The notes beneath the pieces are model-generated. The model was given only the letters and a program-made list of their open reading frames with translations. It had not been told where the DNA came from and searched no databases. From the NCBI RefSeq assembly GCF_029227855.1, contig NZ_CP074356.1: a stretch of DNA of 64,000 bases. One strand, given 5' to 3'. The position numbers and the translations under genes were made by a program. Positions 31,694-34,758 of the stretch are shown here, piece by piece. Each line of letters starts with the position of its first letter. The first letter of the stretch is position 1. Source of the stretch: Escherichia coli. Its GTDB lineage: Bacteria > Pseudomonadota > Gammaproteobacteria > Enterobacterales > Enterobacteriaceae.

Positions 31694-33320
31694 TAGGTTT
31701 CACTTTCGGAATATAGATTGAAAATAAGGTACCGCAGGGATCATTATCTTCGAGAGTGATAACACCACCGCAGCGCGTTACGTAGCTGGCAATCAAGTAC
31801 AACCCAATGCCATGTTCACCGGGCTCGTCAGCACGCGTACTGACACCCTGCTCAAATATTTTGTCTCGTAGAGACTCTGGAACGCCGCAGCCCTGATCGG
31901 CGACTTCAATCACCACATCATCGCCTTCATCGCTGAGGAATAATTCAACGATCTTGTTTCCTTCATCGCTACGTAGGCTGGCTTCGAAGGCGTTATCAAG
32001 TAAATTGCCAACAATGGCTGCAAACTCGGTGCTGTCCAGTCCTGGCGGCAGTTGCGAAAGCTGACTTCCGGGGACGATGACCATTTTTAGCCCCAGTTCG
32101 CGGGCGCGCTGCACTTTACCAAAAAGCAGCCCCGCCACCTGGCGATCGGCAAACGCCTCGCGCAGGCTATCAATAAGCTGTTGCTGGGCCTGAGACTCCC
32201 CCTGCACCATCGCCAACACGCGATCATACTCTTTCATCTGCAACAGACCATTGAGCGTCGACATCCAATTGAGATGCTCGTGTCGCAATGTGCGCAGGCT
32301 CTCGACGTATTGTTTAATTTGCGTCAGTTGCGCATTGAGGGTGGATATTTCGTCTTTACTACGAAAGCTGATAATGGCCCCCAGCAAATCATCACCAGAA
32401 CGAATAGCTTCCCGGTTGGCAATAACGCTCAGACCGTTAAAGTTCGCCACCACATCCTGTCGTTTTTCATCAATCTGTTCGGTAAAGAAATCGGCGGGCC
32501 TGACCACTTCAGCAATGGGTTTACCCAACCATTGCCGTCCGGGGGAGCTCAGCCCCAGCATCTTTCTTGCGTTACGATTGATGGCGGTAATGTAACCGTG
32601 CGGATCCACCGCAATGAGCCCTTCATAAACCGAACTAAACAGCGCCTCTTGCTGACGGACCACGCGTGCGATTTGCTTTGGCTCCATGCCCATCATCTGC
32701 CGACGGATATGCGCGGCCAGGAACCACGACAGCAACATCAGAATCCCTAACAGCACGACAAACACGCCAGCCATCGGTAATAAAAACTCAGCCCGCCAGC
32801 TATCGATTTTACTCACCAGGTAGCCAATCGACACCACGCCGATGACTTTTCCATCGTCATCAAAGATTGGCGTTTTGGCACGCATCGCCATGCCAATTGA
32901 CCCTTTCCCGGTGATGAAGTAGCTCTCCCCTTTCTCCAGCGCGCCCGGTTTGGTGAACTGCATAGGATAACCAATTTTCTCCGGATTAGGATGGTAAAGA
33001 CGAATCGAGTGCCGATCGCCAATCACCACATAATCGAAATCAGTATCTCTTTGTAATTTATCAGCGATGGTCGCCAGCCTCTTGTAGTCACGCGTTTTCA
33101 CTGCGCTGATGATACTGTCATTAGAAGCAATAATTTTTGCCTGATTCATTGCCATATCGCGCACATGAAGCGTTAAATAGTCCTCAAAACTGGCCGTAAA
33201 ATATTGCGCCAGGGCTGCAATGACAAATATTGAGAACACCAGAATCAGCAAAAAGATACGCAGCGGAAATGCCAGTCTTTGGAAAAATGCAAACTGTTTA
33301 TTCTCGTTAAGCTGCAACAT
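31662..33320 (-). CDS. dpiB: Citrate-sensing histidine kinase DpiB (CitA)
   Basis: 552 aa from MLQLNENKQF; two TMs flanking a periplasmic domain, H-box and HATPase; 32-nt overlap with dpiA. Confidence 0.93.
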   Translation of the reverse strand: MLQLNENKQFAFFQRLAFPLRIFLLILVFSIFVIAALAQYFTASFEDYLTLHVRDMAMNQAKIIASNDSIISAVKTRDYKRLATIADKLQRDTDFDYVVIGDRHSIRLYHPNPEKIGYPMQFTKPGALEKGESYFITGKGSIGMAMRAKTPIFDDDGKVIGVVSIGYLVSKIDSWRAEFLLPMAGVFVVLLGILMLLSWFLAAHIRRQMMGMEPKQIARVVRQQEALFSSVYEGLIAVDPHGYITAINRNARKMLGLSSPGRQWLGKPIAEVVRPADFFTEQIDEKRQDVVANFNGLSVIANREAIRSGDDLLGAIISFRSKDEISTLNAQLTQIKQYVESLRTLRHEHLNWMSTLNGLLQMKEYDRVLAMVQGESQAQQQLIDSLREAFADRQVAGLLFGKVQRARELGLKMVIVPGSQLSQLPPGLDSTEFAAIVGNLLDNAFEASLRSDEGNKIVELFLSDEGDDVVIEVADQGCGVPESLRDKIFEQGVSTRADEPGEHGIGLYLIASYVTRCGGVITLEDNDPCGTLFSIYIPKVKPNDSSINPIDR

Positions 33321-33699
33321 TGTTTTCCTTGCGGGTTGTCCCGAGCCTCTTTGACGAATGTAATTAAAATGTTGAATCAAAATACATAGATATTAAATAT
33401 AATCGTGGCAAATTTTATTCATTAAATCAATTAAATCACTTAAACCTGCGGGTCATTTCGTAATTACATTAATTAAAAAACTTAAAACCATTAAATAAAT
33501 AAAAAACCACTAACTCTATGTGAAATAAATCAAAATTTCACGCTGCAATACTCCTTAGGATGTATAGCGAAAGGAGAAAAAGATATACCTCGATCGCCCC
33601 CCTTTCTCCCAAGTGAAAATAAAAGGTTATCAGTTTGCAACATCGAACAACATTTGTTGCAAATCGATAACAACATGCACCTTCAGGATACTATTTATT

Positions 33700-34758
33700 A
33701 TGTTCGGCAATGATATTTTCACCCGTGTAAAACGTTCAGAAAATAAAAAAATGGCGGAAATCGCCCAATTCCTGCATGAAAATGATTTGAGCGTTGACAC
33801 CACAGTCGAAGTATTTATTACCGTAACCCGCGATGAAAAGCTTATCGCGTGCGGTGGAATTGCCGGAAATATTATTAAATGCGTTGCTATCAGTGAATCC
33901 GTTCGCGGTGAAGGACTGGCGCTGACATTAGCCACCGAGCTAATTAACCTCGCCTATGAGCGGCACAGCACGCATCTGTTTATTTATACCAAAACCGAAT
34001 ACGAGGCGCTGTTCCGCCAGTGCGGTTTTTCCACGCTGACCAGTGTACCCGGCGTGATGGTGCTGATGGAAAACAGCGCCACGCGACTGAAACGCTATGC
34101 CGAATCGCTGAAAAAATTTCGTCATCCAGGGAACAAGATTGGCTGCATTGTGATGAACGCCAATCCCTTTACGAATGGTCACCGTTATCTGATTCAACAG
34201 GCTGCAGCACAGTGCGACTGGTTGCATCTGTTTTTAGTTAAAGAAGATTCTTCACGCTTTCCCTATGAAGACCGGCTGGATCTGGTGTTAAAAGGCACCG
34301 CCGATATTCCACGCCTGACTGTGCATCGCGGCTCCGAATACATCATCTCCCGCGCTACGTTCCCTTGCTACTTCATTAAAGAACAGAGCGTCATTAACCA
34401 TTGTTACACCGAAATTGATCTGAAGATTTTCCGTCAGTACCTCGCTCCCGCGCTGGGTGTAACTCACCGCTTTGTCGGTACTGAACCCTTTTGTCGCGTT
34501 ACCGCCCAGTACAACCAGGATATGCGCTACTGGCTGGAAACGCCGACTATCTCCGCACCGCCCATCGAACTGGTTGAAATTGAGCGGCTGCGTTACCAGG
34601 AGATGCCGATATCCGCTTCCCGGGTACGTCAACTGCTGGCGAAAAACGATCTCACGGCTATCGCGCCGCTGGTCCCTGCAGTCACGCTGCATTATTTGCA
34701 GAACCTGCTTGAGCACTCCCGCCAGGACGCGGCAGCTCGTCAAAAGACCCCCGCATGA
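33700..34758 (+). CDS. citC: [Citrate lyase] ligase CitC
   Basis: 352 aa from MFGNDIF; start choice uncertain, ORF open from 33613. Confidence 0.88.
   Translation: MFGNDIFTRVKRSENKKMAEIAQFLHENDLSVDTTVEVFITVTRDEKLIACGGIAGNIIKCVAISESVRGEGLALTLATELINLAYERHSTHLFIYTKTEYEALFRQCGFSTLTSVPGVMVLMENSATRLKRYAESLKKFRHPGNKIGCIVMNANPFTNGHRYLIQQAAAQCDWLHLFLVKEDSSRFPYEDRLDLVLKGTADIPRLTVHRGSEYIISRATFPCYFIKEQSVINHCYTEIDLKIFRQYLAPALGVTHRFVGTEPFCRVTAQYNQDMRYWLETPTISAPPIELVEIERLRYQEMPISASRVRQLLAKNDLTAIAPLVPAVTLHYLQNLLEHSRQDAAARQKTPA

What the first reader, a model, noticed from the sequence alone, without database searches (positions are those of the whole stretch)
33634..33663. Perfect 9-bp inverted repeat in the dpiB-citC divergent control region
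TTTGCAACA-N12-TGTTGCAAA lies about 40 bp upstream of the chosen citC start, inside an AT-rich 380-bp divergent region that also contains tandem ttaaatca repeats near 33420. It is a good candidate operator (DpiA or another dimeric regulator) or an mRNA leader stem.
Basis: seen in the sequence. Interest (0 to 1): 0.35.

Follow-up and report, generated by a model that had tools for sequence, protein, structure and literature searches.

The report
Escherichia-specific hairpin dyad in citC leader
The inverted repeat is real, but it lies downstream of the citrate-operon promoter in the transcribed leader, is restricted to Escherichia, and is not the DpiA operator; it is most likely an ordinary RNA-level hairpin of unproven function.

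Summary
It extends to 17-nt arms (33626-33642 / 33655-33671, 15/17 complementary). The ninth pair is a minority allele, found in 246 of 5,426 complete E. coli genomes. K-12 and most strains have 8-bp arms with a 14-nt spacer.

Alignment of 21 Enterobacteriaceae loci shows invariant control elements further upstream: AT-rich repeats, a CRP/FNR-like box and a NarL-like box overlapping a -10 candidate. These predict a start site near 33568. Two published reporter constructs place the DpiA sites (below ~33507) and the citrate-responsive promoter (below 33611) upstream of the repeat. The dyad is therefore at about +59 to +104 of the citC leader.

The right inner arm is absent outside Escherichia, and changes in sister species are uncompensated. 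DpiA-operator reading: not supported. Leader-stem reading: positionally consistent and thermodynamically strong (-18.5 kcal/mol, z -5.8), but without covariation.

On the antisense strand the hairpin covers the nog1 stop codon and is followed by CUUUUAUUUUC, which looks like a terminator. The half-sites also resemble CytR octamers. Function is unproven and interest is low to moderate.

The parts
33634..33642 (.). Left inner arm TTTGCAACA. The 8-nt core TTTGCAAC (33634-33641) is present in all E. coli sampled. TTGCAAC is conserved across Enterobacterales.
33655..33663 (.). Right inner arm TGTTGCAAA. Position 33655 is T in 246/5426 genomes and C in the rest examined. The arm is present only in Escherichia; Citrobacter and Salmonella have unrelated sequence here.
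33626..33631 (.). Left outer arm GTTATC. GTT is invariant in 21 species.
33666..33671 (.). Right outer arm GATAAC. AAC is invariant. GAT is Escherichia-specific; other genera have GGC, AGC or AGT.
33643..33654 (.). Spacer/loop TCGAACAACATT, containing the invariant CAACA (33648-33652). Position 33644 is a C/T polymorphism.
33615..33625 (-). U-run CUUUUAUUUUC that directly follows the hairpin on the minus strand. On the plus strand it is the A-tract GAAAAyAAAA, which is conserved across genera.
33630..33935 (-). Antisense ORF nog1 (101 aa, GTG start). Its stop codon (33630-33632) lies inside the 3' arm of the minus-strand hairpin.
   Evidence: PMC4683798
33519..33534 (+). TGTGA-AATAAA-TCAAA, a CRP/FNR-hybrid box invariant in 21 species. 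Its centre at 33526.5 would be -41.5 of the predicted promoter.
   Evidence: consensus sequences from general knowledge
33549..33564 (+). TACTCCT-TA-GGATGTA, a NarL 7-2-7-like box overlapping the -10 candidate TAGGAT (33556-33561). The predicted citC transcription start is ~33568.
   Evidence: invariant columns; inference
33419..33509 (.). AT-rich repeat region (TTAAATCA x3; AACTTAAAACCATTAAA...). This is the region removed in the 'DpiA operator' truncation that abolished the citrate response.
33684..33702 (+). Shine-Dalgarno CAGGA (33684-33688) and the citC ATG (33700). Both are left unpaired by the hairpin.

Best explanation
The dyad is a transcribed quasi-palindrome that acts, if it acts at all, as an RNA hairpin. 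It is not the DpiA operator.

Shown: it lies downstream of everything needed for citrate-responsive promoter activity, at about +59 to +104 of a ~132-nt citC leader if transcription starts near 33568. It folds into a 6-bp + 10-bp stem (9 bp in the inner helix in K-12-type strains) on either strand.

Inferred: on the sense strand it is a free-standing leader stem-loop. It leaves the Shine-Dalgarno sequence and AUG open and has no U-run, so at most a modest effect on mRNA stability or processing is expected. On the antisense strand the same hairpin covers the stop codon of nog1 and is followed directly by CUUUUAUUUUC. That is the anatomy of an intrinsic terminator, which would stop antisense transcripts starting inside citC before they run through the DpiA/CRP/NarL control region into dpiBA, which lies on the same strand.

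My split of the 0.45 confidence: antisense terminator ~0.25, sense-strand leader function ~0.20.

The dyad arose in the Escherichia ancestor. New sequence complementary to deeply conserved elements (GTTATCA, TTGCAAC) appeared on the right side.
For: Position. The PcitC::gfp fragment ending at 33611 is citrate/anaerobiosis-inducible. The truncation at ~33507 that keeps the dyad loses the response. The invariant CRP/FNR-like box and the -10/NarL-like box at 33519-33564 predict a start near 33568.

Stability. The plus strand folds to -18.5 kcal/mol (z -5.8) and the minus strand to -16.4 (z -4.2); the K-12 allele gives -16.5. The hairpin persists in the 146-nt leader fold.

Constraint. The 28 core arm positions differ at 9/140 sites across five other Escherichia species. 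This compares with 291/1760 for citC third codon positions and 46/225 for the adjacent 5' leader. The three common E. coli polymorphisms (33633, 33644, 33655) fall in the loop, at a G.U/A.U position, or at the loop-closing pair.

Antisense anatomy. The U-run adjoins the 3' arm, and the nog1 stop codon lies in that arm. In ten Escherichia sequences, 94.1% of cells pair on the minus strand against 86.5% on the plus strand. The 33655 T/C polymorphism stays paired (A:U/G:U) only on the minus strand. The full nog1 ORF and the dyad share the same Escherichia/Shigella distribution. The nog1 authors report a predicted Rho-independent terminator following nog1.
Against: No base pair shows a compensatory double change, and covariation is no better than shuffles on either strand.

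Sister species carry uncompensated mismatches.

Outside Escherichia, an anchored hairpin is not more stable than composition-matched shuffles in most genera. The minus-strand advantage is largely explained by G/U-rich composition.

The stem is AT-rich and the loop is 12-14 nt. The simple terminator scan found nothing here.

No 3' end near K-12 651,93x-651,94x appears in the held supplements of two Term-seq papers. Those data come from aerobic growth and the files may be truncated.

No experimental citC start site could be retrieved; Yamamoto 2009 and Scheu 2012 are not held.

The conserved A-tract exists in genera without the hairpin, so it must have another role.
Confidence: 0.45

Rival explanations
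1. The dyad is a DNA operator for a dimeric regulator other than DpiA, most specifically CytR. Two inverted CytR-type octamers, TTTGCAAC-N14-GTTGCAAA, would bind the flexible LacI-family repressor in the citC leader as a downstream (roadblock or auxiliary) operator. In other genera the same protein would use the direct repeats nGCAAC-N4-nGCAAC that occupy the same helical phase.
For: Both arms are 7/8 identical to the CytR udp half-site TATGCAAC (udp promoter read).

The layout matches the SELEX optimum for CRP-independent binding, AYGTGCAAC-Nx-GTTRCATT with x = 10-13, and CytR tolerates spacers of up to three helical turns (PMC3454398).

Conservation is at the sequence level rather than the pairing level: TTGCAAC, CAACA and AAC are invariant or nearly so across genera. 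The hexamers are phased every 10 bp (33626, 33636, 33646, 33656, 33666).

The pattern looks like site turnover. In E. coli and its four closest sequenced relatives the direct copy is weak (AACAAC) and an inverted copy has appeared. E. albertii keeps GCGCAAC together with a degraded inverted copy. Salmonella and Citrobacter have GCAAC direct repeats and no inverted copy.
Against: CytR-regulated promoters characteristically have the operator between, or next to, CRP sites. No CRP-like site flanks the dyad, and the only CRP-like box is ~120 bp upstream.

The spacer is 14 nt, just outside the SELEX range.

The site lies downstream of the promoter.

No report of CytR control of cit genes was found.

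The match was found after the fact among many possible factors. A TGCAAC-N8-16-GTTGCA dyad is expected a few times per E. coli genome by chance (my estimate).

No second copy exists in the 64-kb window.
Confidence: 0.2
2. The dyad is a functionless quasi-palindrome. It arose in the Escherichia ancestor by mutation, for example a template-switch event copying the conserved left half. It has been decaying by uncompensated point changes ever since. It looks conspicuous only because TTGCAA is itself palindromic and the region is built from repeated CAACA/GTTRY hexamers.
For: The right arm is absent outside Escherichia.

There are no compensatory changes, and several sister species carry single-arm mismatches.

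The loop-closing pair is lost in ~95% of E. coli genomes.

The dyad is not needed for citrate/anaerobic induction in reporter constructs.

Perfect 9-bp repeats are common in the window.
Against: The arms evolve about 2.5-3 times more slowly than synonymous sites and the neighbouring leader. Part of that reflects older conserved elements.

Several independent substitutions on the right side all increase complementarity to the left half.

The extended dyad is unique in the window against 0.17 expected.
Confidence: 0.3
3. The dyad is the DpiA (CitB) operator: phosphorylated DpiA dimer binds it to activate citC.
For: It lies in the dpiB-citC control region, and response regulators often bind repeats.

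One element just upstream (TGAAAAyAA) loosely resembles the TTAAAACCA units of the AT-rich region.
Against: The DpiA sites taken from EcoCyc map to the AT-rich region on the dpiB side of ~33507. Deleting them abolishes the citrate response even though the dyad region remains.

The dyad lies downstream of a fragment that already carries citrate-inducible promoter activity.

The right half-site is not conserved in Citrobacter or Salmonella, which keep DpiAB and every other element.

The GC-containing TTGCAAC arms differ from the AT-rich targets. The AT-rich nature of CitB targets in Klebsiella is from my recollection of Meyer et al. 1997; the paper was not held.
Confidence: 0.03

Closest known systems
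CitB/DpiA target sites in the citC control region (E. coli citA-citC; Klebsiella citS-citC)
   Same: Same intergenic region and the same operon under control.
   Different: Those sites are AT-rich repeats upstream of the promoter (window ~33419-33509) and are required for the citrate response. The dyad is downstream of the promoter, contains GC-bearing TTGCAAC cores, and is half missing outside Escherichia.
CytR operators (udp, deoP2; SELEX inverted octamers AYGTGCAAC-N10-13-GTTRCATT)
   Same: Octamer half-sites are 7/8 identical to the udp half-site. They are in inverted orientation with a long spacer that places both on one face of the helix.
   Different: The spacer is 14 nt, there are no flanking CRP sites, the location is in the transcribed leader, and no link to nucleoside metabolism is known.
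Rho-independent (intrinsic) terminators
   Same: On the minus strand there is a stable hairpin directly followed by an 8-of-10 U-run, overlapping the stop codon of an experimentally supported antisense ORF (nog1).
   Different: The stem is AT-rich with an internal mismatch and the loop is 12-14 nt, against the usual 3-8 nt. It fails the simple consensus scan, and no mapped 3' end was found.
5'-UTR stem-loops that modulate mRNA stability or translation
   Same: A stable hairpin inside a long leader, 12 nt upstream of the Shine-Dalgarno sequence.
   Different: It is not at the 5' end, does not sequester the ribosome-binding site, shows no covariation, and matches no Rfam family.
Quasi-palindromes produced by template-switch mutation
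   Same: Lineage-specific appearance of an arm complementary to pre-existing sequence, followed by uncompensated decay.
   Different: The arms evolve more slowly than neutral proxies within Escherichia.

Membership tests
DpiA/CitB operator | Lies within the region whose removal abolishes DpiA-dependent citrate induction | tested here: not met
   The DTR305 truncation starts at the equivalent of window ~33507. It retains the dyad region but does not respond to citrate. This was measured on the C. rodentium ortholog in an E. coli host.
DpiA/CitB operator | Located upstream of, or at, the promoter it activates | tested here: not met
   A fragment ending at 33611 has anaerobiosis-plus-citrate-inducible promoter activity. 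Conserved promoter elements lie at 33519-33564. The start site itself is predicted, not measured.
DpiA/CitB operator | Conserved wherever DpiAB and the citC promoter architecture are conserved | tested here: not met
   The right inner arm is absent in Citrobacter, Salmonella, Intestinirhabdus and Enterobacter loci, which keep all other elements.
DpiA/CitB operator | Bound by phosphorylated DpiA in vitro | not testable with these tools
   The footprint paper (PMID 19202292) is not held.
CytR operator | Two octamer half-sites resembling (A/T)(A/T)TGCAAC | tested here: met
   TTTGCAAC and GTTGCAAA (reverse complement TTTGCAAC) are each 7/8 identical to udp TATGCAAC.
CytR operator | Half-site spacing of 0-5 nt or about one helical turn (10-13 nt for inverted octamers) | tested here: inconclusive
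   The spacer between octamers is 14 nt, giving a centre-to-centre distance of 22 bp. The literature allows up to three turns in vitro.
CytR operator | Adjacent CRP site(s), typically two ~52-53 bp apart flanking the operator | tested here: not met
   No TGTGA-N6-TCACA-like site lies within ~30 bp on either side. The nearest CRP-like box is at 33519-33534. For comparison, udp has CRP sites on both sides.
CytR operator | CytR binding and cytidine-relieved repression | not testable with these tools
   No data found.
Intrinsic terminator (minus strand) | Stable hairpin immediately followed by a U-rich tract | tested here: met
   The minus-strand hairpin folds to -16.4 kcal/mol and ends at 33626. 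It is followed by CUUUUAUUUUC (33625-33615).
Intrinsic terminator (minus strand) | Short GC-rich stem with a 3-8 nt loop | tested here: not met
   The consensus scan found no terminator-like site in 33250-33800. The loop is 12-14 nt and the stem is mostly A-U.
Intrinsic terminator (minus strand) | Mapped RNA 3' end at the U-tract | tested here: inconclusive
   No entry at K-12 65192x-65194x, and no citC or dpiB entry, appears in the held supplements of PMC7815308 and PMC12207403. Those data come from aerobic conditions and the files may be cut.
Structured cis-regulatory leader RNA | Base pairs supported by compensatory changes | tested here: not met
   No pair has a double change within Escherichia, and the covariation score is no better than shuffles. 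Across genera 63% of cells are paired, equal to shuffles.
Structured cis-regulatory leader RNA | Match to a curated RNA family | tested here: not met
   An Rfam search at E-value up to 10 gave only noise hits to eukaryotic snoRNAs and a ylbH fragment.
Sigma-54 promoter | GG-N10-GC (-24/-12) conserved | tested here: not met
   E. coli has GG(33625-6)-N10-GC(33637-8) with TTGCA. The GG is AG, CG or TG in most relatives.

The most novel reading that the evidence does not exclude
The dyad is the terminator that a de novo antisense gene acquired. In the Escherichia ancestor, a few substitutions (or one template-switch event) created a right arm complementary to ancient leader elements next to a pre-existing T-run. 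This produced an intrinsic terminator that ends nog1 transcripts at their stop codon and insulates the dpiBA regulatory genes from antisense read-through. It would be a concrete example of how a newborn overlapping gene gains a 3' end.
Probability: 0.15. Interest if true: 0.55.

Novelty: new member of a known kind. Interest (0 to 1): 0.25.

Why it matters
If the hairpin only decorates the citC leader, it matters little. The useful result is negative: it should not be annotated or tested as the DpiA operator. The conserved control elements of the citrate-fermentation operon (AT-rich DpiA region, CRP/FNR-like box, NarL-like box) lie 70-280 bp further upstream.

If it terminates antisense transcription, it would document how an overlapping orphan gene (nog1) obtained a terminator, and how the DpiBA two-component genes are shielded from read-through.

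If CytR binds it, that would be the first natural CRP-independent, two-turn-spaced CytR operator, and it would link nucleoside sensing to citrate fermentation.

Tried and rejected
Sigma-54 promoter. E. coli fits GG-N10-GC with TTGCA, but the GG is not conserved.

Longer citC ORF or leader peptide from GTG 33613, as in the EDL933 annotation. The start codon, reading frame and openness are all broken in other genera.

Second promoter inside the conserved block (TGnTATCAn-like). It lacks the -7 T and a -35 element. The truncated C. rodentium construct that retains this block shows no switching. The promoter scan found nothing.

A terminator hairpin conserved across genera. Anchored hairpins outside Escherichia are not better than shuffles.

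Rfam families: none.

Term-seq supplements: no 3' end found.

Other motifs compared by eye and dropped for poor fit or lack of conservation: CRP or FNR at the dyad, GlpR, PurR, Cra, ArcA (TGTTA with 11-bp phasing, against TGTTG with 10-bp phasing here), OmpR, IHF, Fur, DnaA and an FnrS 7-mer.

The RpoS SELEX peak in the citC-dpiB spacer maps near the dpiB start after coordinate conversion, not to the dyad.

Primary papers on CitB footprints and citC-lacZ regulation could not be read.

Full report
**Observation.**
The sequence is exactly as reported: TTTGCAACA at 33634-33642, a 12-nt spacer, and TGTTGCAAA at 33655-33663. The repeat finder extends it to 17-nt arms, 33626-33642 and 33655-33671, with 15 of 17 positions complementary. 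That is an outer GTTATC/GATAAC helix, a 2-nt imperfect step, and then the inner helix.

The window is E. coli. RefSeq annotation puts the dpiB start at 33320 on the minus strand and the citC ATG at 33700, so the divergent region is 379 bp and the repeat ends 36 nt before citC. The tandem TTAAATCA units at 33422, 33431 and 33440 are also real.

**Is it more than chance?**
A perfect 9-bp inverted repeat with a spacer of 20 nt or less is not unusual. The window has 17 distinct ones, against roughly 5 expected. The extended dyad is a different matter. It is the only one in the window with 17-nt arms and at least 15 matches, against 0.17 expected under a Markov null. As RNA it folds to -18.5 kcal/mol, with none of 200 shuffles as stable.

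**How typical is it of E. coli?**
It is a minority allele. The exact 30-mer occurs in 246 of 5,426 complete genomes, and the only other combination that would keep nine pairs occurs in none. K-12, O157-type and most other strains carry C at 33655, which leaves 8-bp arms TTTGCAAC/GTTGCAAA and a 14-nt spacer. The common polymorphisms are 33633 G/A, 33644 C/T and 33655 T/C. All three lie outside the 8-bp core and the 6-bp outer arms.

**Where it sits relative to the control elements.**
I fetched 80 citC loci from other species and aligned the upstream regions of 21 Escherichia, Citrobacter, Salmonella, Intestinirhabdus and Enterobacter genomes. The alignment is almost gap-free and shows a strongly conserved architecture:
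- AT-rich repeats at about 33419-33509.
- An invariant TGTGA-AATAAA-TCAAA at 33519-33534. Its left half is CRP-type and its right half is FNR-type (consensus sequences from general knowledge).
- An invariant AATACTCCTTAsGATGTAT at 33546-33565. This reads both as a NarL 7-2-7-like pair and as a -10 hexamer, TAsGAT.

If the box is centred at -41.5, the start site falls at about 33568, which is also 7 nt after the hexamer. This start site is a prediction; I could not retrieve an experimental one.

Two published constructs support the geometry.
- Fellner et al. fused the fragment ending at window 33611 to gfp and saw about 2-fold induction by anaerobiosis plus citrate (PMC4683798). A responsive promoter therefore lies upstream of the dyad.
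- In a C. rodentium citC biosensor, truncation at the equivalent of ~33507 removed the DpiA sites taken from EcoCyc and abolished the citrate response, although everything downstream was kept (PMC12405535).

The dyad is therefore at roughly +59 to +104 of a ~132-nt leader, and it is not where DpiA acts.

**Conservation of the dyad itself.**
The left side is old. GTT (33626-28), TTGCAAC, CAACA (33648-52) and AAC (33669-71) are invariant or nearly so across genera. A block GAAAAyAAAAnGTTATnAnnTTGCAAC is recognisable as far out as Hafnia, Buttiauxella and Edwardsiella, at variable distance from both the promoter box and the ATG.

The right inner arm is the least conserved stretch of the leader. 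Citrobacter has AACAGAAAC or CGCAGAAAT, and Salmonella has TACAGAAAA. So the dyad is an Escherichia innovation, built by making the right side complementary to older elements.

Within Escherichia, the other species carry single-arm changes and no pair shows a compensatory double change. Covariation scores do not exceed shuffles on either strand. Across genera only 63% of cells pair, the same as shuffles.

On the other hand, the 28 core arm positions differ at 9/140 sites summed over five Escherichia species. This compares with 291/1760 for citC third codon positions and 46/225 for the adjacent upstream leader. The arm sequences are therefore under some constraint, part of which belongs to the older elements.

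**RNA-level reading.**
Because the dyad is transcribed, the hairpin will form. On the sense strand it is stable (-18.5 kcal/mol; K-12 allele -16.5). It survives in a fold of the whole leader, leaves the Shine-Dalgarno sequence (33684-88) and the AUG unpaired, and is followed by AACAACAUGCACC, which is not a U-run. So it is neither an attenuator nor an obvious translational switch. No Rfam family matches.

On the antisense strand the same hairpin (-16.4 kcal/mol) is followed immediately by CUUUUAUUUUC, or UUUUUAUUUUC in several sister species. Its 3' arm also contains the stop codon (33630-32) of the 101-codon antisense ORF listed. This ORF is nog1, for which Fellner et al. mapped a start site, showed promoter activity, and reported a predicted Rho-independent terminator following the gene. 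I could not see their figure to check whether it is this hairpin.

Antisense transcripts not stopped here would run through the control region into dpiBA, which is on the same strand. Pairing is somewhat better on the minus strand: 94.1% against 86.5% of cells in ten Escherichia sequences. The 33655 polymorphism is A:U/G:U on the minus strand but A:U/A.C on the sense strand. The full nog1 ORF has the same Escherichia/Shigella distribution as the dyad.

Several points count against the terminator reading.
- The stem is AT-rich and the loop is 12-14 nt.
- The simple terminator scan is negative.
- The minus-strand advantage is largely what G/U-rich composition gives by itself.
- Hairpins anchored at the T-run are not significant outside Escherichia.
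- No 3' end was found in the Term-seq supplements I could search.

**DNA-level reading.**
The sequence-level rather than pairing-level conservation, and the 10-bp phasing of GTTRYN/NRYAAC hexamers (33626, 33636, 33646, 33656, 33666), are what a protein-binding array would look like.

The best match I found is CytR. Both arms are 7/8 identical to the udp half-site TATGCAAC. The arrangement TTTGCAAC-N14-GTTGCAAA is close to the SELEX optimum for CRP-independent binding quoted by Sernova and Gelfand, AYGTGCAAC-N10-13-GTTRCATT. CytR tolerates spacers of up to three turns. Salmonella and several Citrobacter species instead have direct nGCAAC repeats 10 bp apart, another CytR-type layout.

Natural CytR operators sit next to CRP sites, as udp shows, and none flanks this dyad. 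The spacer is one nucleotide outside the SELEX range. The match was found after the fact, and no link between CytR and citrate fermentation turned up. I treat it as a lead, not a classification.

**Alternatives rejected.**
- A sigma-54 promoter fits E. coli but not its relatives.
- The long citC annotation starting at GTG 33613 is not conserved as a reading frame.
- A second promoter in the conserved block is unsupported.

**Verdict.**
The DpiA-operator interpretation is not supported. The leader-stem interpretation fits the position but lacks evolutionary support.

My estimates:
- RNA-level hairpin: 0.45 (antisense terminator ~0.25, sense leader element ~0.20).
- Functionless lineage-specific quasi-palindrome: 0.30.
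- Operator for CytR or another dimeric protein: 0.20.
- DpiA operator: 0.03.

This is a small, uncharacterised member of familiar classes, of low to moderate interest. The by-products (the conserved promoter architecture and the unexplained conserved leader block) are at least as informative as the repeat itself.

Noticed in passing
window 33519-33534: TGTGA-AATAAA-TCAAA is invariant in 21 species. It is a hybrid of a CRP left half and an FNR right half. It is positioned as a class II activator site (-41.5) for the predicted citC promoter.
   Followed up: partly
window 33549-33564: TACTCCT-TA-GGATGTA is a NarL/NarP 7-2-7-like pair that is nearly invariant across genera. It overlaps the -10 candidate TAGGAT (33556-33561). 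This would explain the reported nitrate repression by promoter occlusion.
   Followed up: partly
window 33613-33672 and loci L002-L064 (about 85 nt upstream of citC): A conserved leader block GAAAAyAAAAnGTTATCAnnTTGCAAC...CAACA...AACA occurs across Enterobacterales, at variable distance from the promoter and the ATG. Its hexamers are phased every 10 bp. It is non-coding, does not form a conserved hairpin, and its function is unexplained.
   Followed up: partly
window 33630-33935 (minus strand): The antisense ORF nog1 (101 aa) is described as 'completely embedded in citC' only under the long EDL933 citC annotation. With the RefSeq ATG at 33700, its last ~23 codons lie in the citC leader and overlap the dyad.
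   Followed up: partly
window 33613-33699: The alternative upstream citC start (GTG 33613, 381 aa) is not supported. The aligned codon is CTG, ACG or ACA in 11 of the 20 relatives, the frame shifts in seven, and in-frame stops occur in six.
   Followed up: yes
window 33574-33610: A second, weaker inverted repeat GGAGAAA-N23-TTTCTCC lies in the poorly conserved 5' part of the leader. This is the fastest-evolving stretch of the region (46/225 differences among Escherichia species).
   Followed up: no
window 33345-33360: TGTAATnAAAATGTT is nearly invariant across genera, about 25-40 bp from the dpiB start codon. It is probably part of the dpiB promoter or leader. The literature reports that the sRNA RybC regulates dpiBA (my recollection).
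   Followed up: no
window 33422-33509: The AT-rich region is built from 9-bp units of the form nTTAAAyCA/TTAAAACCA. The spacing from the first unit to the CRP-like box is fixed at 97 bp in many genera. It coincides with the segment whose deletion abolishes the DpiA-dependent response.
   Followed up: partly
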